Shown here: piece after piece, positions 16,424 through 64,000 of the stretch
Layout of the letters: each line of letters starts with the position of its first letter
Position numbering within the stretch: position 1 is the stretch's first letter
Assembly (NCBI GenBank): GCA_964016885.1
Contig: OZ024740.1
Location: forward strand, 373,240,001-373,304,000
Source of the DNA: Eledone cirrhosa
Lineage: Eukaryota
Direction: 5' to 3'
Length of the DNA stretch: 64,000 nucleotides
Translations under genes and position numbers: made by a program
Notes under the pieces: generated by a model
Told to the model about the DNA's origin: nothing
What the model saw: the letters and a program-made list of their open reading frames with translations, nothing else
The model's database searches: none

Positions 16424-16878
16424 TATTGTTCGGAAGTTCGTATTAATTCTAAAACCACTGTCTGGAATGGGAAATGCAGGGGGAAGGTGGATTACACTTT
16501 AAATAACTGACTGGAAGATACGCCACAGCTGCACTACGTCGGCATGATAGCAAAATATTTGCCGTGGAGAATAGCTAGTGACAGATGCTGCATCAGCTAT
16601 GCCACCGCATAACGTTTCCTCCCTGAAGCAAGAATGATTACCTCCAATAGTATTGTTCGGAAGTTCGTATTAATTCTAAAACCACTGTCTGGAATGGGAA
16701 ATGCAAGGGGAAGGTGGATTACACTTTAAATAACTGACTGGAAGATACGTCACAGCTGCACTACGTCGGCATGACAGCAAAATATTTGCCGTGGAGAATA
16801 GCTAGTGACAGATGCTGCATCAGCTATGCCACCGCATAACGTTTCCTCCCTGAAGCAAGAATGATTACCTCCAATAGT
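16424..16878. repeat. Tandem duplication, 2 x 227 bp, about 3 mismatches
   Basis: Unit starts tattgttcggaag at 16424 and at 16651. Confidence 0.95.
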
Positions 16879-19330: not shown

Positions 19331-21610
19331 GTTACAGGTTCGAATGTAAAGTTATTTTATAGTGAGAAAATTTAGCCTTCAGTTTGTGGCGCAGTATAAT
19401 GATCGTTCGATTCTGACATTTAGTAATTTATTTTTGGATTTTAAGATGTAAAAGTGTTCAAGATTACATAACCTGCAGTACTTCAATCCACTCCGATATG
19501 CACTAGCGCTGGAAAGTATATCCCATTTCAAGGTGAACTATTGGTTGCGTTCACGGAGTTGCCAGGTCTTGTTGGCGATCGTGGTCACAACACGGTGATT
19601 AGGATGTTTAATTGAGAATCGATGACGCTACCAGCGATATTTAAAGGAGGTAGTGGCAGACCCGATGTAATACCATTTCTGGTAGTTCGATTCAACAGTG
19701 CATTGATAAACAATTTTGGACTTTAGGCATTTATTCTTCAATGGACATCTTTCAGGTAGGTGGCTGTTACAGCTTTTATTGTGGGTAGCAGGTATACCAT
19801 GGATAGGTTGGGATAACAGTACAGGTGGGTTGTGTAATACCCGTCTCCCATTTAGTGGTTGGGTGGCCGATACTACATTATGTTCATCTGTTATTAAAAT
19901 ATTTTGTTTTGTAGTGTTGTTTAATTGCATTAAGTTAAGTTTTTTTATGTATGCTTCAAGGTTTGGTGCAGTGGAGTATGATAGCTTAATAGTCTTAGAG
20001 TTCAGAATTTTGCTGTATTAATGGGTACTAGGGAAATGCTTGTTGATTAACTTAAAGAATGAAAGAGATAGTTTTGTACTAATCGAAGCATTACAAATGG
20101 GATTATACCAGATCTACTTTCTACAACGTGATTTATTTGGTGATGATTTTCTATTATTAGTATGTCTGGTGGTACTGCGTGTGCGCGCTTGTATTTCTAT
20201 ACCGCGGTTACGTATTCTTTGATTTCGTATAGAGCTATGTGTGTTATGGAGATTCTGATCAATGTATTATATTGTATCCCGGTGGTCGGCAGTCCTTAAT
20301 GCATTATCATAGTATTCAGCATGTTCACTGAAAATCTCAGAGTTAAACGATAGGCGAGAGATTCTAAGAGAAATACTACGGGGAACCGATTTGATCAAGG
20401 AAAGTGGATGGTTTAAGTTAAAATTGATATAGGTAAGGTTCTAATTTATCTTGTGGAAGGGTCGTATCAGTCCGGTATTTAAATTAAGAGTTACGTCTAG
20501 AAAAGTTACTACTTTAAGATTGTATTCATACGTTATTTTTAGACCCAGTTCACTAAAAAATGTTCTAATGTTTTTCCGTAGCCTTTCAAGATTTTGGTTA
20601 TTTAAGTTATTAACTATTAAGAGCGCGTCATCTCTATATATTCCCCCCTGTAGATTACTCATTTTCCATGTAGTATGAGGGCTATGTAAATTCCCACAAG
20701 ATCGTTGACCTCCGCTGAGTCGTTGGAGCCCATGGTAATGTCGAAGTTTGTGGGTCTGTTCTTACGTTCCCAGTAGCAGTTATCACACTTGATAATAGAT
20801 TTCCTAGCCTCTAGAATAATATTAATTTCGTCCTCCGTTAGGTCGGAATTGACTTTGGCAAACGATAGGGCCTTACGTAAAGTTCTGGGTGAGATTGAAG
20901 AGTAGTATTCGTCCATGTCAAATTGTATAAACTTACACTTATTCTTGTTCTTAACGTTATTAAACCAGCGAATTGCTTCGCTAGTGTTGCCCCATAATCT
21001 AATTTCTATTTTCTTTTTCAATTGAGTTATTACTCTGTCAAGTATATGTTTGCTAATTTTTCCTATGTCTGATTTAGACGGGCATATAAGTCTAATCTTA
21101 GGGTTAGAGTCAACATTTACCTTATGGTCCTTCAGGTTAAAGGTGAGGGTTGCGGGTATAATCGGCTCGGTTCTATCGTCTATCTTGAGATTCTTCACCA
21201 CCTTGTATGGCTCGTTGTTAATAATTGCTAGCGTAGTTTCACTTGGTTTTCTATATTTCTTGTGTAGTTCATTGCGTATGAAGTTGTTGTATGTATCGAT
21301 ATCCATGGTATACACGTTAGAGGTCTTATCAGCTTCCACAACAATTCCATTGGTATTTTGCAGTATGTTTGGTAAATTTAATATTCATGGTCATATTCAT
21401 TAAGTCTTGTTCAAAAGCATCGAGATGGGGGTTTGTGGGTGGGTGTTTACATGATTTAAAACCATATGATTCAGACGAGTGACTGGCGTGTCCCTTATCG
21501 AAATGGAAAGCCTTCCATTGTACACGCCGAATAAAGTCATTATTGCATTGTATCATACCAAGAATATATTCCCTTTTGTTAGGTATAGGTATGTTTTTAA
21601 GTGACATACC
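19331..21610 (-). pseudogene. PLE RT + GIY-YIG endonuclease ORF, frameshifted
   Basis: SLKNIPIP..RRVQWKAFHF, ADKTSNVY, LKDHK..IRLICPSKSDIGKISK, FIQFD..YYSSI, FDITMGSNDSAEV, GIYRDDAL, VTFLDV, CPLKNKCL..IVYQC..YYIGS, CRLCNLE. Confidence 0.92.
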
Positions 21611-24998: not shown

Positions 24999-28070
<3,072 letters not shown>

Positions 28071-36726: not shown

Positions 36727-37434
36727 TATAAAAAATAAACCAAAGAAGCCTTCAATACATCAAAAGTCTTTATTAGCCAACAATGTTTCGTCCTATTAAG
36801 GACTCATCCGGGCAAGTAAAGCTACAAGAAGCACTATCGGCCAATACAAGCCAGAAACTCAGAAGAATATGGAGTATACATCTATTAAAGCCTAGGAAGG
36901 ATATTAAGGAAAAGTTGGCTAAGATTAAGAGTGATCAGTTACATACATAGATATGGACCAAATAGCAAGGAAGTGATTAACATGTTGAACCCACACTGCA
37001 AATATTGTATAATGCAACAACTTGAAACACAAATGGTAATATAATGCGAGTATAATATAATATAATAGACGGTGATAATAAAAAGCTTAATATATGTATA
37101 TATATACATATGTATATATATACTGCTCACTCTTAATCTTAGACAACTTTTCCTTGATACCTTTCCTAAGCTTTAATAGATGTATACTCCATATTCTTCT
37201 GAGTGTTTGGCTTGTAACGGCCGATAGTGCTTCTTGTAGCTTTACTTGCCCTGATGAGTCCTTAATAGGACGAAACATTGTTGGCTAATAAAGACTTTTG
37301 ATGTATAGAAGGCTTCTTTGGTTTATCTTTTATAATTCTTCGGCTCTGTTTAATTACATAGAGCTATATCCTATACTGTCATTTCTATAATATGAAGAGG
37401 GTGTTTAACTCCAACACACTGTAGTATTTTAATT

Positions 37435-42220: not shown

Positions 42221-45052
42221 CGTATTGGCAGAAGGAAGGGTGGAACTGCCATTTTCCAACATGATTTATTTCCAGCAGATGGTAAAACAACATTCTCCAA
42301 TGGCTACTGTGAATCAGTCACTGTGCACAATAAAGCCAATGACCTGATATTAGTTGGGCTCTATAGGCCACCACAAACACCCATATTCTGCTTCAAAGAA
42401 TGCCTCAACAGTATTAAATGCTTTATTAAACAGTGCCATTTTAGCAATATACTCATGATGGGAGATTTTAATCTACCCTGTGTCGATTGGTCTACAAGCA
42501 ATTTTAAAGCAGGCACCCCAACCATAACCACTGACAAAGAAGCAGTCGAGTCACTTCTTGACTTCATGAATGAGTGTTTCTTGTCCTAACTTGTATTTGC
42601 AACAACAAGGCACCAGAAGAACATTCTGGATCTAGTGTTTAGTAACCACACTAATACTATACATTACAGTGGAAAAAAAACCCCTTATCTCAGACCCTGA
42701 CCTGGTTCTTTGTAACCTGAGATTCCACCAGCCGAAAGCTAATCCTAGGGACCTCTTTCCAGCCCACCCGTTTGATAACATGGATCTCTACAATACCAAC
42801 TGGGATGCAATTATGAACGAACTATCACATGTTGACTGGTCTTTTACACAGGCACACACTTCCACCGACATCAAAACATCTTGGCAGATCTTTGTAGACA
42901 CTGTCACAAATATATGTACAAAACACACCCCACCAAAACCTGTGAACAAAACTAAGTGCAGTATCCCCCAAAACAGAAAACCCAATTACCAGAAAAATAA
43001 GAAAACAGAAAAATTAACACACTAAAATACTGCGAACAGCAACACACGCATTTGACGGCTATCGCCCTGCTTGAACCAACAAAATATAACCTCGAACAAT
43101 GCATGTAGACCATCATCACTAACCAGAGAACAGCTGAAGAGAGGTGTGCCATTGAGAAAATCAAACTCAACTCCAAAGTGTTCTTTTTTATTTGCTTAAA
43201 AAACACAAGGTCACGGTCTCCACTGTTGGCCCTCTAGTTGATGAAAATGGCACACTCCAAGATGATGCCAAAACCATGGGCGAGATACTGCAGAAACAAT
43301 ACTGCTCTGTTTTCAGCAATCCTGATATGGCCGATCTGGCCTGTATAAGTGATGTTAATGCAACACACTACATCGGACATAACTTTTGGCGCCTCTGATG
43401 TCTCAGCGGCAATAAACGAAATTAAACGCAATTCAGCAGTAGGCCCCGACCTGTTCCCTGCTTGTGTCCTGAAGGTGTGTCGACACCAACTTGCATCTCC
43501 TCTTGCTAATCTGTGGAGGAACTCACTGGATACTGGTTATATTCCTGAGGACTTTCTGTCCCAATCCGTTGGCCCAGTCTTCAAAAAGGGAAATAAGTCC
43601 CTTGCAGTGAACTACTGTCCGATCTCACTCACCTCTCATATTATCAAGGTATTTGAAAGGGTGGTGATATCATGAGTAACCCACTTTCTTGAAAGCAACG
43701 GCCTGCTGAACTCCAACCAACAGTGGTTCCGTAATGGAAGTGATTGCCTAACGCAGCTGCTACATCACTTTGACAATGTTTTGAGAGCCTTTGGATTGGG
43801 GTCCAAATCTGATGTCATGTACCTTGATTTCAGCAAGGCCTTTGACAGGATTGATTATAAGATTCAACTGAAACAACTATCAAATATTGGTGTCTCTGGA
43901 AAATTACTACAGTGGATCAAATGTTTCCTGACCGACAGAACCCAGCATGTAGTCGAAGGAATAAAATCAAGCCCTGCCAAAGTTAGCAGTGGCGTCCCAC
44001 AAGGCACTGTGATGGGCCCACTTCGTTTCATCATCTACAATAATGTTATTACTGACATCATCAAGCACATCAACATAATAATCTTCGCACATCATTCCAA
44101 GCTCCAAAGGGTCATCAATGAGGTGGGTACCGGATTGCCTTCACTCAGACCTACTGACTGTTATCCAATGGGCAGAAAACAATAATATGTTGTTGAATGA
44201 GGACAAGTTTGAATTAATCCACTTTGGAAAAAAGGATGCCCTGAAACTACCATACTCTCTGCCTTAGGGTGAAACTCTAGTGGCATCCAACAACATCAGA
44301 GACCTGGGAGTAATTGTGGACAACAACATAAGCTGGGCCACTCATATAAACAAGAAAGTTGACATGGCCAGCAGAAAGTGTTCCTGATTTCTCAGAACCT
44401 TCCAGTCGATAGATATCGCTACTGTTATTCTTCTCTTCTCCACTTTTGCCGACCCCACCTTGAATACTGTTGTCAAGTGTTGTCTGCCCACAGGAAACAA
44501 AGTATCATGAAAGTTGAAGCACCCCAAAAATCGATTACAAAAATGATAAATGGCATGACAGCCCTTGACTATTGGACTCGATTAGAAAATCTCAACATTT
44601 ATTCTCTCCAAAGTCGCCGTGAGCGCTACATTATCTACATGATGTAAACAAATATTCCATCAGCTTTGCCCAGATGATGTTGGCATCACCTTTAATGTAC
44701 ACCCAAGGCTTGGGCCCGGTGCTATCCGCCCACAACATAAATCTCACTCGCATCTCATAACAACAATACGGCATAATTATTTCACCTCAATTGGCTCTGC
44801 TCTCTTTAACATTACACCAAAACACATCAAAACAGAAACAGACCCCATAGAGTTCAAGAAGTCTTTGGACAATCCTTCAACAAATCCCGGATAAGCCTCC
44901 TACACCCGGATATGCCTACATAAACAATAACTCTCTGCTCGAGTGGGCGATGTTGCCCAAACCCTGATTTGTAAGACTTCATCGGGTGTTGCTATTAAGT
45001 TAGACATGGCCTGGGCCAATACTGGCCGAAACCTATCAAAGTTATCAAAGTT
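42221..45052 (+). mobile_element. CR1-clade LINE ORF2 pseudogene (APE endonuclease + RT) with 3' UTR
   Basis: GLYRPP, MGDFNLP, ILDLVFSN, PVFKKG..NYCPISLTS, YLDFSKAFD, SGVPQGTVMGP, RPHLEYC; tail tatcaaagttatcaaagtta. Confidence 0.95.
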
Positions 45053-45680: not shown

Positions 45681-48600
45681 GCTGTTGTCTCGTTTGTTTA
45701 CACCAACCAACTCGTCTCGGATCGGTTATTTATTAGTGCTCCTAGGCGTTTGATCCAAAGTGCTTCATTGATTCGTAACGTTCCGACGTTGCGTTATGTC
45801 GCTAGCACTGTGACAATAGGCCTTCCGTCTTTGTTTCCGCATTTGGTTATGTGTTTCCGGAAAGACGAGGCCCTGGCGTTGATGTACTCCTTGATCGGGA
45901 TATCTAGTGGCCGGATTATGCTACCGATATAGTAATGGTTGCACTTGTCACATTATACCCTGTATACAACGTATGTGCGTAAGCACCAGTTCGTTTGGCG
46001 CATCGGACAGTTTCTGAGGGAACACGCGTCAGACGATTTCTCGGGTTTCTTGAGACAGGAATTGTTTGCATCTATAAGGGAACTCTTTAGACTGTCGGAG
46101 AAATGGGCGAATGTTGGCTGTCAAATTATTTTCCTAAAACGCTGCCTAAAAAACGATCTCATCAGGAACATCCGCTTACCAGGATGTCTACGTACACCAA
46201 CTTTTCAAAACAGCGCTAGCCGCATACACCACTCGTGTATCAAACAGATCCTGCGAAATCTTAACCGCCAGTTACACATCCAGAGCGGACACACCGATTA
46301 ACACTAACACCCGGTGACTTGCTCCTTAAAATCACAAAATAAATCGACCTGTGCTACCACTCCAGAGTCCAACACGAACATAAAACGACTCAAGCGGAAA
46401 TCTGAGTGGATCTTGCTTAAACTCCACAGCGAAAACACCGACACTAACAAACAGACAGACCAGAACCACGTGATAAACAGCAACATAACAACCGTCACCG
46501 CCACACCCACAAACACCGAGCCACAGCTCAACGATGCGGCCCACCTGCACACCGACCTAACCGGCACTCTCACGAACGACGAGCTGGAACTCATACGCCT
46601 CGGACCCAAGTACATCATCTCACAGCGGCTCGACAACAGACTTAAACTCGACATCGAAGTCAACTTCTGCCGAGCCGCCTACCAACTTAAATGAGTGACT
46701 TCCATCAACATCACCACGGAAAATAACAGCACCCACACAAGCCACTCCAACTTCCCCACTTACCACCTCGACAACCCACTCCACCCCCCACTCACCAGCC
46801 ACGAACTCGACACGAAACTCATCAGATTAGAACACTCCATCTCTGATATCCTACACAAACACACACACACGCACAACACACAACCTTACTAAATCTCAAC
46901 TCACCACTCTCTCCAACCCGAAATCGAGGAACCTCATCTACCTCCCCTCCGACAAGAGAAAATAATTCTGCGTCATCAGCAGAGAGGCCTACACCACCCT
47001 AGCTCTCCAACACCTTAACGATGACAACCTCTACTCCAAGGTCACAGGAATCACTCCCACGCAGATCGAGGAGCACATCAACGACGCCTGGACAAACATC
47101 TGTGATCGGCGGAAGCTTCCGAAGAAGCTCAGATACAACGACCATACGAGGAAGAGCAGACTACCCGCCTTCTACCACCTTGTGAAAACACACAAACCCG
47201 AACTGAGGATCAGACCTATTGTATCGAGCGTGGAAGGACTGCTCTACAGAATGTCATTGCTCCTAGCAAGAATACTTATACCCATACTAGACACCTTGCC
47301 GGGACACGTAAACAGCTCCGAATTGTTGGAGCACCTGCATCAAATGGATCCCGACACCAGAAACGCTAACAGGTATGCCTTCAGCCTTGATGTGGTCGCT
47401 CTTTACACCTTGGTCCCGGCGCTCACGGCCGTTGATATACTGATGGAATGCGTTCAATTTACCGACCTACACTGCTTCGGGCTCACCCCCACTGACATCC
47501 ACCAGCTCCTATCCGTCGTCGTTGACAACACGCATTTCGGTTTTCTCGACCAAACATACCGGCAAACCTCGGGCTTCCCATGGGCTAAAGCCTGTCGGGT
47601 GTGCTAGAGTTCTCTTACATGGACGGCCTCGAGCGCAATACACTCAACACCTCCCACCCCAACACCGTCGCCTTCTTCTTAAGGTACGTGGACGACATCC
47701 TCATCCTCACATCTTCCCAGGAGATGGTGAGCGGAATTTATGAGATGTTCAACAACACGGACGAGAATATTGATTTCAGTGTTGAACACCCCAACGACGA
47801 CGGTTCCCTTGCCATCCCCGACTTCCGAATCAACATCACGGAGCAGGGAGGTTATCCCCACCAACTTCTACCGCAAGACAGCCTGCAGAGACTACAAGTC
47901 TGCCATCCCTAACAGTGCTAGAAGAGGGTACATCACGAACGAGATCACGCGAATTAAAAACAGATGTAGCGATCCCGTGAGTAGTGTCACCCATACCAAG
48001 CGCTTTTTCAGGGTGCTGCAGACGAACGGATACCAAGCCTCGCTTACGAACAAAGTAAGGGACACCAGGCGCAAGAGGCAGAGAAACACCCAAGGCAAGT
48101 GTTTCCTTTAAATCCCGCACCTGGGCGATAAAACCACCAACGCTATCCCCAGGACTATACGGAGAGAGGGCATCGACATCCACCTGGCCCACTCGGGCCG
48201 CTCCCTACAGAGATGCTTCTCCAGGAAGCCCGGGAAATCGTCTGACGCGTGTTCCCTCAGAAAATGTCCGATGCGCCATAGGAACTGTTGCTTACGCACA
48301 TACGTTGTATACAGGGTAGAATGTGACAAGTGCAACCACTACGATATCGCTAGCACAATCCGACTGCTACATATCTGGATCAAGGTGCACATCAACACTA
48401 GGGCCTCGTCTTTCCGGAAACCCATAACCAAATGCGTAAGCAAAGACGGAAGGCCCATTGTCACAATGCTAGAGACAGAACGCAATGTCGGCACGTTACG
48501 AATCAAGGAAGCACTTTGGATGAAACGCCTAGGACCAGAAATAAATAACCGATCCGAGAGAAGCAAGACGAGGTGGCTGGTGTAAACAACTGAGACAACA

Positions 48601-53645: not shown

Positions 53646-55864
53646 AACCAGTAAGACCCCGACAGCTGAGCTCAAGCCGTTTCGACGACTAATTCTGGAC
53701 TAAATGAAAATTTGTCCTGGTATTTAAATAGCCGATCTTCTCAAGGGGTAATTCCATATATGGTCAAAGTGATTGTCAAAAATCAGTAGTAATTCTGTGG
53801 TTGCAAATTAGTTGGGGAGATGGTGGCTAAACCTGCCAGTAGGAGAAAGAGGGGAGGGGGTGGAGTAGACCCAATCAAGCGTTGGTAGTGCCAGCTACAG
53901 CTGGGCATGAGGTCAAAGAAGATACAGGGGAGGGGGAGGAAGTCGGAACGGTAGGTAGAACAATGGGGGGTAGAAATATATAGGAAAGAAAAAATACTGA
54001 GAGTGGAGAAAAGCAAATAAGTGTAAAGAAAAAAGTAAAGTAAATTCTACGACCTAGGTCTCTAGCTATTGTTAGGCTAGAATAAATAAATAAATAAAGA
54101 AAGAAAGAAGTAAAGAAAGAAATAAAGAAATAACGAAATAAGTAAAAGAACTAGGTGGGACGGATAGGCAAGGACCCTTTTAAGAGGTATAAGTACGTAA
54201 ATGATACGGTGACGGGTCAACAAAAGGGACCAAAATACTAAAGAGACTACCACGAAATAAACAATAAAGGTTTCCATCCCGGGCACAATGCCAGCAATCA
54301 CCCAGTGCAGCAAAGTGAACTAGTATGAGATAATAATTCTGAGTCCCGAGAAAAATATATACTAATGCTAACTCTAAAAGATCTAAAACAAGCTACATGA
54401 AAGTTCGTACGAAGTAAAGGTAGAATACGGAAAAATAAATTCAGAATCCACCCCGCCCAAAAGAAAAGCGAAGAAAGAAATACTGAAACGAAAAAATAAG
54501 GCATAAGTGCCACTAAGAAATATAGAGGGCACAGAGAATAGTGGGAGCGGTCGGAAAAAGGGGACAAGTATCCGGGATCTAAACCAACTGCTATAAAGGG
54601 CGGAGTCCGCCAAATCTATCATAGACTAGGGGAGGGGGTGGGGGTACTAAGGCTACAAGGGGCCAAAGGGCAGCCTCGGGTGGGCGAGAAAAGACGCCGA
54701 CAAAGGAGAAGAGCTGGGGTAGAAGGACTAAGGAGAGAGGGGGGAAGGAAATAAAGGAAGCGATAAAAGAATACAAAGAAGATCTTACGTCTCCCTTGGC
54801 AAGCAGGGGTTACCCATTGCAAAATCGGCAAGTGGGGTGTTATAGCCCTAGTCTACCCCCCCCCCCCCCCCGGGTCATTATGGGGTTTGAGGGCGAGGTA
54901 AGTCCTACGCAATCCATGTTTACATGCAGTAACCAGTTCATCTTTCTTGTTTAGGAGTTGGTCCGTCGAAAACAGCATTTGTAAAGTTTCCTCCGAGCAT
55001 AAATTGCACGGACGGCGTCCTCCCGTGTAAGAATTGGCTCTGGACAGTAATCTCCAAGTGATGTAATCACGTGACAGTAATCTCCAAGTGATCATAGGTG
55101 ATGTTGTTGTCCTTGAGGTCCCATATGTGGCCCGAAAGTGTAGTGGCGTGACGCCGGGCCGGGTTTCGGAAGGTATGTCTATGTTGGTATAGCCGGGTCT
55201 TGAAGTCACATGCGGTAAGTCCTATATAGGCTTTGTTGGAGGTATCCGTCCTCACGTTGCACTGGTAGATCACATTACGGTCTCTGCATCTATTGTCGAG
55301 TGGGCAAATGGATCTATCCGGGCAGTTACACCTCCTGGTCGGTTCTCCACTGCTATTTAGGTTATTTCTGCCATCGGGGTTGAGTTTTTTGTTGTTAGAG
55401 GAGACGATGTTTTGTGCGAAGTTTGGTGTAGTGCTGTAAGAGAGTTTGATGGTATTTTTGTTAATTATGTTGTGGTAGCGGTGTTGTAATGGGAAGTGTT
55501 TTTCAATGAGCCTAAAGAATAGTTTCCCGATGGGAGTTGTCACCTCTGCGTTGTGGGGAGGATTGAACCATGTTACATTGCGTGAGCGGCGGTGTCTCCT
55601 GCTGGTTCCGCTAATGGGAGCTGGACAGTAGGATATTTCCTCCCGGAAACCACTCCGCTTGAGGGCCTGGTTGTAATAAGGCGCATGTTCATCGAATATC
55701 CGCTCATTAGCTGACAAACGGGATATGCGGAGAATTAGCCGTCGAAACGGCTTGAGCTCAGCTGTCGGGGTCTTACTGGTTCCTATTACCCACTCTACTA
55801 CCTCAAGTAGTGAGTACTTTGGTGCGTTATGGTCCACCTGGTTCCTTACCACATTTCCTTCGTT
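53642..55864 (-). mobile_element. 5'-truncated Naiad-like PLE (family C) with short inverted pLTR + tail at 55731-55864
   Basis: RISRLSANE..YNQALKRSGF, RNVTWFNPP, NKNTIKLSYS, CNC..CPLDNRC..VIYQC..YIGLT..FKTRL, CNLCSEE, CKH; ORF remnant 54853-55730. Confidence 0.93.
53657..53748 (-). ncRNA. Type I hammerhead with U3-A8 core, long stem II and full palindromic stem III
   Basis: CCCC-UUGAGAA-GAUCGGCUA...UAGUCGUC-GAAA CGGCUUGAGCUCAGCUG UC-GGGG. Confidence 0.75.
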
Positions 55865-57284: not shown

Positions 57285-57440
57285 AGTATAGGTTTCAGCG
57301 AGAATCGCATTTCGGCGTCTAGGAAAGGTGAAAGGAAACGCAAAAATCAGAAATGACACTGGCAAAGTGCTCAATAGTTAAAAAACAGAGCTAAACAATA
57401 TGTTAAGAAGCCATACAGAACTGATAAATATATATACACA

Positions 57441-57505
<65 letters not shown>

Positions 57506-57511
<6 letters not shown>

Positions 57512-58803
57512 ATAAATGCTCTGAAATAGCGATATATATGTGAATATAGACATAGAATATTCGAAAATATTCTGTATGTTTATAATAAACATTTTGAAGA
57601 CCTAATCGCTATAGAATAGAATACGTCACGTATTACAATTAGATTCTCGATAAAAGCAAGGGAAGTAAATCTACGCGTTTCATTCTTATTAGAAATCGTC
57701 AGGACTACATATCCAGTGCTTTCATCGAGAATGACACAGCTAGAGACTTATAGAATACTTAGCTGTGTACAGGAACTGGTTTGAAAGAGCGGTTGCCGGT
57801 CCGGCAGAAATTAGAAATTGGAATAAATGCTCTGAAATAGCGATATATATGTGAATATAGACATAGAATATTCGAAAATATTCTGTATGTTTATAATAAA
57901 CATTTTGAAGACCTAATCGCTATAGAATAGAATACGTCACGTATTACAATTAGATTCTCGATAAAAGCAAGGGAAGTAAATCTACGCGTTTCATTCTTAT
58001 TAGAAATCGTCAGGACTACATATCCAGTGCTTTCATCGAGAATGACACAGCTAGAGACTTATAGAATACTTAGCTGTGTACAGGAACTGGTTTGAAAGAG
58101 CGGTTGCCGGTCCGGCAGAAATTAGAAATTGGAATAAATGCTCTGAAATAGCGATATATATGTGAATATAGACATAGAATATTCGAAAATATTCTGTATG
58201 TTTATAATAAACATTTTGAAGACCTAATCGCTATAGAATAGAATACGTCACGTATTACAATTAGATTCTCGATAAAAGCAAGGGAAGTAAATCTACGCGT
58301 TTCATTCTTATTAGAAATCGTCAGGACTACATATCCAGTGCTTTCATCGAGAATGACACAGATTTACTTCCCTTGCTTTTATCGAGAATCTAATTGTAAT
58401 ACGTGACGTATTCTATTCTATAGCGATTAGGTCTTCAAAATGTTTATTATAAACATACAGAATATTTTCGAATATTCTATGTCTATATTCACATATATAT
58501 CGCTATTTCAGAGCATTTATTCCAATTTCTAATTTCTGCCGGACCGGCAACCGCTCTTTCAAACCAGTTCCTGTACACAGCTAAGTATTCTATAAGTCTC
58601 TAGCTGTGTCATTCTCGATGAAAGCACTGGATATGTAGTCCTGACGATTTCTAATAAGAATGAAACGCGTAGATTTACTTCCCTTGCTTTTATCGAGAAT
58701 CTAATTGTAATACGTGACGTATTCTATTCTATAGCGATTAGGTCTTCAAAATGTTTATTATAAACATACAGAATATTTTCGAATATTCTATGTCTATATT
58801 CAC
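57506..58803. mobile_element. Retrozyme-like element, 311-nt non-coding monomer; 2.75 copies minus-sense (57506-58360) joined to about 1.4 copies plus-sense (58361-58803)
   Basis: ttggaataaatgc at 57507, 57818 and 58129 (period 311); copies appear identical; one HHR per monomer; (TA)n flanks. Confidence 0.9.
58637..58675 (+). ncRNA. Type I hammerhead of the 311-nt monomer (minus copies 57668-57706, 57979-58017, 58290-58328)
   Basis: AGUC-CUGACGA-UUUCU aaua AGAAU-GAAA CGCG UA-GAUU; predicted cleavage after 58671. Confidence 0.9.
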
Positions 58804-58917
58804 ATATATATATATATATTTGTGTGTGTGTGTATGTGTGTGTGTGAGTGTATATTTATGTTGCACTTACACGCAGGCGCAGGCGCTAGGACACACATAT
58901 ACACGCACATATATATG

Positions 58918-62627: not shown

Positions 62628-64000
62628 GGGTGTGTATGATTGTGAATAGAATATTATATTAATAAAAGGAATTCCAACTTTGTCTGATTTACTCGTTTTA
62701 TTTACAATCCTTTAAAATTTTTAAAAATTCATAATGGTATTAGAATGAAATAGTATGGCAGAATATTAAATGTTAAGTGTTAATTGAACAAGTACTTTCA
62801 TGCTTTCGCAATCTTCAGGTTCATAATGTGTGGTGACAGTCAAGTTTTCAATTTTAAACTGTAATGAGATGGGTAAATTTTGTGCCGTATATACGGTGAA
62901 AAGAGGGTCCAGAATGCTAAATCTTGCAAACTGTATTTCGACCAATCGCTCTGTAGTTACACTGGATTACTAAAGCTGATTGGTTTAGGCGTCACGGTTG
63001 GTTGAGCATATCTAACGACTACTCATTGATCCTATCCAAAGCATCAATTGTTTTGCTATTTTTAGAAATGATGAAAATAGAATTTTCTAGTAATCATCAC
63101 TATCAACATCACTTTTTTATTATTATTATTGTTGTTGTTGTTGTTAGTGGTTGTAGTCGGAATGGTCGTAGTCATAGTCATAGTAGGAGTAATGACCCAT
63201 TATTATTGTTCATTTAGCTTGGGTTTGAATTTATCAATAACATTCTTTTCTTTGATTTTTCTCTTGATTTCACTTGGGCTGTGTAATTTGTATAATGGGA
63301 TTATTATAAATATTCCCTCCCCACATGTTGATAGATGGTTACTTAGGGGTATCTGACGGACATTTGCTGTCGGTATACCCGTGCACGTTCCGATAGTGCA
63401 TTTCCTGTTTGACCGACATATAGTTCTTCACAATTCGGGCATTTAATGCAGTAAACTAGATTTCTGCTTTTGCAGTTCATATTTGTATTTGGGAATATTT
63501 TTCCAGTTTTTGTTTTCATATATTGACCGGCGTGTATGGATTGACATGTGCCACATCGACTATCATTGCATTTAGATACAGTGAATGATTGGTCTTTGTT
63601 GTTAAGGTCAAACGTTGCTTTTGTTAGTAATTGCTTCAAATTTTTCGGCTGTCTTTTACTAAGAGTCAAAGATCGATCTGTGATTAAGTCTTTTAATTCA
63701 TTACTTTAAGCAATGATCGGTACGTTTGCTTTAGCAGTGTTGAAGATATTCTGGTGACATGGGTTGTGTGTCATTATAAATGGTATGACCAGTTCTTGGT
63801 TTCTTCTTCCTTGGGTTGTCCTAAGTTGTTGTATAGGTATTTTCATAGCCCGCTGTATGGCATTTTCTATAAGTAGATATGGGTATTTTTGTTTGAGCAA
63901 ACATTCTCTTAGTTCTGTTATGCGTTTGTACCTCGTATTCGTATCTTCTACAATGGTACAGATTCTTCTGGCTAGGCAGTATGGGATGTTGCGTTTTGTA
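62628..64000 (-). mobile_element. Neptune-like PLE 3' part (RT thumb, linker, GIY-YIG, 3' UTR), cut by the window edge
   Basis: NIPYCLARRICTIV, IPFIMTHNP, KRQPKNLK, KCNDSRCGTC, MNCKSRNLVYCIKCPNCEELYVGQT, FKPKLN; ORF ends near 63200. Confidence 0.93.
62785..62823 (-). ncRNA. Minimal type I hammerhead
   Basis: UGAAC-CUGAAGA-UUGC gaaa GCAU-GAAA GUAC UU-GUUCA. Confidence 0.85.

What the first reader, a model, noticed from the sequence alone, without database searches (positions are those of the whole stretch)
57506..58803. Young 311-nt hammerhead retrozyme that records a circular/multimeric RNA template and the ribozyme cut site
Seen: a non-coding 311-bp unit repeated about 4.2 times, apparently identical, each unit with an intact type I HHR (CUGACGA...GAAA CGCG UA). 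The array inverts at 58360/58361, and the sense arm begins at GATTTAC, exactly the predicted post-cleavage 5' nucleotide (GUA^GAUUU; the next site, 58672, is 311 nt later), with only 2-nt AG microhomology. Both arms read through uncut HHR junctions and end at different internal AT sites fused to (TA)n. Known: non-LTR retrozymes of metazoans are tandem 150-400-nt HHR monomers that form circRNAs and are thought to use PLE machinery. Inference: this is an active or recently active cephalopod-type retrozyme copied by rolling-circle or multimer reverse transcription.
Basis: partly seen in the sequence, partly recalled or inferred. Interest (0 to 1): 0.92.

Follow-up and report, generated by a model that had tools for sequence, protein, structure and literature searches.

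The report
Ribozyme repeat inserted as head-to-head arrays
This is one of more than a thousand recent insertions of a small self-cutting RNA repeat whose copies look as if a borrowed retrotransposon enzyme copied one RNA, probably a circle, many times from both sides of a DNA break, which makes a long-proposed but unproven way of spreading testable.

Summary
The sequence description is correct: 4.2 identical 311-nt units, four type I hammerhead (HHR) cores, and an inversion with 2-nt microhomology at the predicted cut site. The cut-site inference fails. Only 4 of 142 inner junctions in other copies lie within 3 nt of the cut, against 3.2 expected. The family tells more than the locus does. It has about 17,200 units in at least 1,041 loci, and 71 of 80 sampled loci are head-to-head arrays in (TA)n. 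Each has one outer end at unit position 166 and the other at about 131-140, the 35-nt "tail" of Penelope-like elements (PLEs). Units and both arms of a locus share one haplotype, including variants private to that locus, and array length is unrelated to divergence. Best reading: a non-LTR retrozyme whose RNA, mostly a monomer circle, is primed twice by a PLE enzyme, once from each target strand. Some loci point to multimeric templates. Ribozyme activity, the circle and the partner PLE were not shown.

The parts
57424..57505 (.). Left (TA)n target microsatellite
57506..58361 (-). Arm with the long ('tail') end: 2.75 units; RNA-sense 3' end at unit position 166, inner end at position 244
57506..57540 (-). 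35-nt tail (unit positions 132-166), present at this end only; lies between the two inferred reverse-transcription start sites
   Evidence: tail motif conserved in older related families
57665..57708 (-). Type I hammerhead, copy 1; predicted cut between 57672 and 57671
57976..58019 (-). Type I hammerhead, copy 2; predicted cut between 57983 and 57982
58287..58330 (-). Type I hammerhead, copy 3; predicted cut between 58294 and 58293
58360..58361 (.). Inversion junction with 2-nt microhomology (1-2 nt is the commonest class in the family)
58360..58811 (+). Arm with the short end: 1.45 units; inner end at position 311/1, RNA-sense 3' end at position 131-140
58361..58671 (+). One monomer, cut site to cut site: 311 nt, 34% GC, longest ATG ORF 30 codons, folds better than shuffles (z about -4)
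58635..58678 (+). Type I hammerhead, copy 4: stem I with a 1-nt bulge, core with C7, U.U at the base of stem II, 1-bp stem III with a palindromic tetraloop; predicted cut between 58671 and 58672
58812..58845 (.). Right (TA)n/(TG)n flank

Best explanation
A young non-autonomous, non-LTR retrozyme family mobilised in trans by a Penelope-like element. Steps: (1, inferred) Arrays are transcribed. The HHRs, probably acting as dimers because stem III is one base pair plus a palindrome, cut the transcript into 310/311-nt monomers, which are ligated into circles. (2, inferred from ends shown here and from in vitro PLE work) The PLE protein binds the RNA near positions 130-170, nicks both strands of a (TA)n tract, and primes reverse transcription from each 3' end at two internal sites about 35 nt apart. 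(3, inferred from homogeneity shown here) Both cDNAs are copied from the same RNA, in most cases by going round a monomer circle many times, up to 40 turns in one arm. (4, shown as a product) The two cDNA 3' ends are joined head to head at scattered positions with 0-5 nt microhomology. The window's junction at the cut site is chance. My confidence is about 0.85 for twin-ended PLE priming and about 0.65 for a mainly monomer-circle template.
For: Architecture: 15 of 16 loci picked only by unit identity are inverted; 15 of 16 have an end at 166-169 and 14 of 16 an end at 122-140. In 80 consecutive loci on one contig, picked by the 166 end, 71 are inverted, and 55 of the 60 with a visible far end stop at 128-140. 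The far flank is TA-rich in 54 of 56. This matches the inverted 5'-truncated copy and one-sided 30-40-bp tail of PLEs (PMC8557442) and the two internal start sites and both-strand extension shown in vitro (PMC11167929). Intact 781-784-aa PLE-type ORFs with the same head-to-head, (TA)n-fused layout are in the genome. One template per locus: 34 majority haplotypes in 71 loci; 414 of 479 units equal their own locus majority; differences per pair are 0.32 within loci and 3.74 between; arms agree in 42 of 50 loci (permutation mean 4.0, maximum 12). None of 31 loci has an arm-specific fixed variant, and 9 variants seen in a single sampled locus are fixed in all units of both arms. One haplotype motif occurs only at one locus in the assembly, 10 times over both arms, and all 8 full units there carry it. 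Length is set at insertion: rho 0.04 with divergence (p 0.79), and 9 of 25 arrays of 10 or more units have no substitution. No excess of stops or errors (2 against 2.9 expected) at the cut junction. In the HHR core only the free position 7 varies, and stem I is kept in 69 of 71 loci over five sequence variants.
Against: Single-unit variants recur within some loci, which an error-free monomer circle cannot give. In the 45 sampled loci with 5 or more units, 5 variants occur twice and 5 at intermediate frequency, against 50 singletons and 9 fixed. L061, L169 and the C824 array share sporadic variants across arms out of register. L071 and L098 switch haplotype within an arm. L107 has a variant in both covered units of one arm only. 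A private haplotype may have a parent that is absent from this assembly. No autonomous PLE with a terminal repeat like this unit was found among three families and 12 candidate loci. Cleavage and circularity were not observed, and only 1 of 9 predicted Xenopus retrozymes cleaved in vitro in 10.64898/2026.07.22.740005.
Confidence: 0.6

Rival explanations
1. The same twin priming by a PLE, but on a long linear (or multimeric circular) uncut transcript of a parent array. Homogeneity is inherited from the parent.
For: Variant in register in both arms of L080; sporadic variants shared across arms in L061, L169 and C824. Unprocessed RNA was the main substrate of the anole PLE in vitro (PMC11167929). 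Very long arrays exist as possible sources, one with a 40-unit arm.
Against: It needs a homogeneous parent for every haplotype: 18 loci with an arm of 8 or more units carry 10 haplotypes, one haplotype motif has no second locus, and one substitution is fixed on four different backgrounds. Arrays could only shrink over rounds. Self-cleavage-generated 5' ends should enrich junctions at the cut, and they do not.
Confidence: 0.25
2. Short PLE-type insertions that later grow and homogenise at the DNA level by unequal exchange and conversion, as satellites do.
For: Variants repeated 5 units apart in L044 and L060 and 2 apart in L084. This model is discussed in 10.64898/2026.07.22.740005.
Against: No length-divergence relation and many long arrays without any substitution; a nearly empty middle of the within-locus frequency spectrum; the outer ends stay exact even in a 53-unit array.
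Confidence: 0.08
3. One priming event followed by fold-back or template switch onto the new cDNA makes the second arm.
For: Explains identical haplotypes in both arms. Some junctions use the unit's internal inverted repeat, for example a 16-nt overlap in L053.
Against: A copied arm cannot be the longer one, yet the 131-arm is longer in 22 and the 166-arm in 34 of 56 complete loci. It does not explain a second fixed outer end.
Confidence: 0.04
4. One reading: the plus arm ran off the 5' end of a ribozyme-cleaved linear RNA.
For: The junction fits the cut within the 2-nt overlap; L169 and L110 also join at or next to the cut.
Against: The frequency is at chance level in the sample and genome-wide. 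It cannot be excluded for a single locus.
Confidence: 0.05
5. The inversion is an assembly or long-read chimera artefact.
For: Hairpin-like structures can arise in sequencing. The window's own junction was not among the joints listed.
Against: The two arms have different fixed ends, different lengths and locus-specific junctions in 71 of 80 loci. Contigs of run X1 show 12 joints from the minus arm to the plus arm at other phases.
Confidence: 0.02

Closest known systems
Metazoan non-LTR retrozymes (coral, mussel, axolotl; PMC7229834)
   Same: Non-coding tandem 150-450-bp low-GC units, one type I HHR each, thousands of copies. The weak stem III with a palindromic tetraloop is like axolotl HHR_Amex1 and the U.U at the base of stem II like HHR_Amex2.
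   Different: There, circles were shown and mobilisation was proposed. Here no RNA was examined, but the insertions show head-to-head arms, two fixed ends, (TA)n targeting and one haplotype per locus, which I did not find described in the parts I read.
Penelope-like elements: inverted 5'-truncated copy, 30-40-bp tail, microsatellite bias (PMC8557442); anole Poseidon PAc in vitro (PMC11167929)
   Same: Inverted arms, a one-sided tail, two internal start sites downstream of the HHR cut, AT-rich targets, and no role of the cut site in junctions.
   Different: No ORF. Inversion is nearly obligatory, and each arm is a long multimer of one small unit. No sequence link to an autonomous family was found.
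Vertebrate retrozymes as non-autonomous PLE derivatives (10.64898/2026.07.22.740005)
   Same: Same class of element and same proposed partner.
   Different: Their evidence is co-occurrence and terminal-repeat homology, with local amplification discussed as the source of arrays. Here the evidence is junction anatomy, and it argues that array length is set at insertion.
L1 twin priming (recalled; search listing only)
   Same: Product geometry: both RNA 3' ends face the flanks and the 5' ends meet at a microhomology junction.
   Different: In L1 the second priming site is variable and the two pieces are different parts of one linear RNA. Here both sites are fixed and both arms repeat the same unit.

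Membership tests
non-LTR retrozyme | Tandem non-coding units of 150-450 bp with low GC | tested here: met
   311 nt, 34% GC, longest ATG ORF 30 codons
non-LTR retrozyme | One type I hammerhead motif per unit | tested here: met
   Core intact in the majority unit of 71 of 71 loci; stem I kept in 69 of 71. Rfam models did not detect it.
non-LTR retrozyme | Many dispersed copies, dimers to multimers | tested here: met
   1,041 exact end junctions; 17,211 units
non-LTR retrozyme | Self-cleavage of the transcript | not testable with these tools
   Sequence constraint only. The active fold is not the minimum-energy fold of the monomer.
non-LTR retrozyme | Expressed as monomeric circular RNA | tested here: inconclusive
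   No run on record as RNA was listed. The 340-nt (310+30) contigs in three runs fit a circle or collapsed tandem DNA equally.
PLE-mobilised element | One-sided 30-40-bp tail (two 3' ends) | tested here: met
   Ends at 166 and 128-140 in 55 of 60 complete loci, and in loci not picked by an end
PLE-mobilised element | Inverted 5'-truncated copy adjoining the 5' end | tested here: met
   71 of 80 loci
PLE-mobilised element | Insertion bias for microsatellites or AT-rich DNA | tested here: met
   54 of 56 far flanks TA-rich
PLE-mobilised element | Intact autonomous PLE in the same genome | tested here: met
   Many 781-784-residue open frames; look-alikes carry GIY-YIG, HTH_animal or RVT_1 families on part of their members; direct Pfam scan of two ORFs was blank
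PLE-mobilised element | Sequence homology to the pseudo-LTR of an autonomous partner | tested here: inconclusive
   None in three families and 12 candidate loci; most PLE families of the genome were not examined
PLE-mobilised element | Target-site duplication | tested here: inconclusive
   Cannot be read inside (TA)n

The most novel reading that the evidence does not exclude
Two reverse-transcriptase subunits of a PLE dimer, each primed by one strand of a cut (TA)n site, roll at the same time round one 310-nt ribozyme circle, each displacing the other's cDNA. Every insertion is then a written record of a single circRNA molecule: its haplotype, the number of turns (up to 40, 12 kb) and perhaps its lesions, seen as sporadic variants that recur in both arms, including at position 310 beside the ligation site. 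A second, unrelated retrozyme family in this genome shows the same layout in one fully read locus, so this could be the general route by which animal retrozymes spread.
Probability: 0.4. Interest if true: 0.88.

Novelty: new variant of a known kind. Interest (0 to 1): 0.72.

Why it matters
How animal retrozyme circles get back into the genome is a hypothesis in the papers read (PMC7229834 discussion; 10.64898/2026.07.22.740005), and how PLEs form inverted copies and tails is named as open in PMC8557442. This family joins the two questions. It offers over a thousand near-identical, recent products with defined start sites, a 310-nt substrate, a known target and intact candidate enzymes in the same genome. 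It gives a direct assay for target-primed rolling-circle reverse transcription and a route by which satellite-like arrays arise in one step.

Tried and rejected
Cut-site junction as a family feature: rejected. The first control pattern was mis-designed, matched every unit, and is used only as a unit count. The corrected control at position 251 (132 hits) is not neutral, because it includes fixed variants and a hot spot at the internal inverted repeat, so I rely on the sampled junctions and the simulation. Junction phases are not quite uniform (Rayleigh p about 0.01 for the 131-arm, 0.25 for the 166-arm); not followed up. Rfam: no hammerhead hit. Search for the autonomous partner: no homology in families P1 and P2, in an older family without intact frames in the listed top hits, or in 12 loci picked by the tail motif. 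Pfam and PDB were uninformative for the PLE ORFs. Expression: no RNA holder listed; the laid contigs cannot show ends, strand or level. A candidate parent unit for the 89T variant proved to be a junction piece in an array of otherwise wild-type units. Earlier scan findings: three look-ups, none. PMC5785218 was not held. One search stopped with an error after printing the C824 array; the missing L080 part was redone.

Full report
Observation. The region is as described. With unit position 1 set at the G after the predicted cut (58361), the minus arm runs 57506-58361 (positions 166 to 244, 2.75 units) and the plus arm 58360-58811 (311 to 140, 1.45 units), both without a mismatch and overlapping by AG. 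In RNA sense the arms meet at their 5' ends and their 3' ends face (TA)n tracts. The unit is 34% GC with no ATG ORF over 30 codons and folds about 4 SD better than shuffles, linear or circular.

The ribozyme. Rfam found nothing, so I tested the motif by variation. The catalytic core is intact in the majority unit of 71 of 71 sampled loci and varies only at position 7 (T, A or C). Stem I pairs fully, or with one bulge as in the window, in 69 of 71 loci over five sequence variants, and the U.U at the base of stem II becomes A-U in 18. Stem III is one pair plus a palindromic tetraloop that can form a 6-bp homoduplex (-9.5 kcal/mol). PMC7229834 reports that axolotl HHRs of this build cleave poorly as monomers and well as dimers. 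By inference, multimeric transcripts would be cut and a monomer circle would be fairly stable. Activity was not tested.

The family. The genome is 3.0 Gb. An exact 25-nt motif occurs 17,211 times and the exact junction of position 166 with (TA)n 1,041 times. Dividing units by the sampled mean gives at most about 2,160 loci. I read 16 loci picked by identity to the window unit and the first 80 of the 1,041 junctions, all on contig C1, in 4.5-kb stretches. Of the 16, 15 are inverted (one is cut by a gap), 15 have an end at 166-169 and 14 an end at 122-140. Of the 80, 71 are inverted. The other 9 are 4 cut off by the fetch, 1 by a gap, 1 with a degenerate short arm and 3 single-armed. Of 60 with a visible far end, 55 stop at 128-140; the range reflects a TA tract in the unit. 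The 166 end in this sample is there by construction.

PLE signature. PMC8557442 describes an inverted 5'-truncated copy, a one-sided 30-40-bp tail and microsatellite bias for PLEs. PMC11167929 shows in vitro that a PLE protein nicks and extends both strands of AT-rich DNA and starts at two internal RNA sites that bound the tail, independent of HHR cleavage. The ends at about 131 and 166 fit this directly. The genome holds many open 781-784-residue PLE-type frames, often head to head and fused to (TA)n. Their terminal repeats do not resemble this unit and their tails look longer, so the partner is unidentified. The tail motif is conserved in older relatives that end at the matching site (394 hits).

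The cut-site claim. Taking one inversion junction per locus, 1 of 142 arm starts lay within 1 nt of the cut (1.4 expected), 4 within 3 nt (3.2) and 7 within 10 nt (9.6). Genome-wide patterns, which cover 60 of 71 majority haplotypes, gave 19 hits. Six are point variants at position 310. A random breakpoint gives such a hit with probability 0.0051 per arm, so about 9-18 are expected. The window's junction is ordinary. Microhomology of 1-5 nt is found in 42 of 71 junctions.

One template per insertion. The 71 loci with a full unit carry 34 majority haplotypes. 414 of 479 units equal their locus majority, pairs differ by 0.32 within and 3.74 between loci, and arm majorities agree in 42 of 50 loci against a permutation mean of 4.0. 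Most disagreements are noise from arms of one or two units: among 31 loci with at least two full units per arm, none has a variant fixed in one arm only. In 45 loci with 5 or more units there are 50 singleton, 5 doubleton, 5 intermediate and 9 fixed private variants, the last all spanning both arms. One variant motif exists at one locus only, in 10 places over both arms. The same substitution is fixed on four backgrounds. Another private variant turned out to have three sibling arrays on one background, so 'private in the sample' is not always unique. Length does not track divergence (57 loci with 3 or more units, rho 0.04), and 9 of 25 arrays of 10 or more units have no substitution. One insertion has arms of about 13 and 40 units with both ends exact. 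The cut junction is not error-prone. Together these favour repeated copying of one monomer at insertion, with a covalent rather than a jumped junction.

What does not fit. L061, L169 and the C824 array share sporadic variants across arms out of register. L044, L060 and L084 repeat variants 5, 5 and 2 units apart. L071 and L098 change haplotype along an arm, and L107 differs between arms. Multimeric templates, template switching, later conversion or repeated misreading of a lesion in one RNA could each explain some of these. I therefore put the monomer circle at about 0.65 and the linear or multimeric template at about 0.25.

Independent data. Six runs hold the unit, none on record as RNA. I laid 4 of the 6. 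One shows 12 joints from minus-arm to plus-arm positions, so inversions are not peculiar to this assembly. Three, under other organism labels, hold a single 340-nt contig 98-99% like the unit, which is what a 310-nt circle or a collapsed tandem repeat would give.

Literature. Read: 10.64898/2026.07.22.740005 parts 1-3 of 5 plus a term search (supplements closed and may bear on array orientation); PMC7229834 passages and Discussion (its supplementary model figure not seen); PMC8557442 passages and one section; PMC11167929 parts 1-2 of 4; PMC8490949 and PMC7761336 term passages only. Seven searches listed no paper whose title or abstract start describes head-to-head, tail-bearing retrozyme arrays or per-locus haplotype fixation. 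The library lacks most subscription journals. Clade names for the PLE fragments and L1 twin priming are recalled, not tested. The host was not determined.

Verdict. A real, very young retrozyme family, a new variant of a known kind. Interest 0.72.

Noticed in passing
L176, L179, L052 (G000:C1:9967800-9972900 and others): A second, unrelated HHR retrozyme family with 422-484-nt units containing an internal microsatellite, also in -/+ arrays ending in (TA)n; in L176 the two ends are about 62 nt apart. A loose HHR pattern covering both families and others has 41,176 hits.
   Followed up: partly
L107, L185-L190: Older relatives of the 311-nt unit (about 70-80% identical over positions 55-236) with different HHRs, the same tail motif and the same inverted layout; in some the first core base is T, not C.
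   Followed up: partly
L139, L159-L165 (G000 C2, C3, C10, C13, C24, C4): Two abundant PLE-type families with intact 784- and 781-residue frames (66% identical), often head to head, with two (TA)n-fused ends roughly 110-150 nt apart.
   Followed up: partly
window 19628-21384, 25202-26345, 46966-48585, 54853-55780, 63343-63705: At least five broken PLE-like fragments, and a LINE-like RT fragment at 43676-44185, in this one window.
   Followed up: partly
window 37241-37295: A separate type I HHR-like motif on the plus strand, about 150 nt upstream of a (TA)n tract; probably another PLE end or retrozyme.
   Followed up: no
L163:784-860 and L033:3220-3300: A further HHR family whose core and stem II resemble this unit's and which ends in (TA)n some 35-45 nt after the cut; a possible lead to the autonomous partner.
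   Followed up: no
G000:C824:33714-50294 and L169: Substitutions at unit position 310, which would break the cleavage triplet, recur in 4 of about 53 units (T>C) and 2 of 13 passes (T>G) without a period.
   Followed up: partly
L180-L182 (G000:C1:211.9-212.4 Mb): A fragment of a related retrozyme embedded in a larger block present in at least three near-identical copies, about 2 kb from a PLE endonuclease fragment.
   Followed up: no
window 16424-16878: A 227-bp direct duplication, 98% identical, with no HHR core pattern.
   Followed up: no
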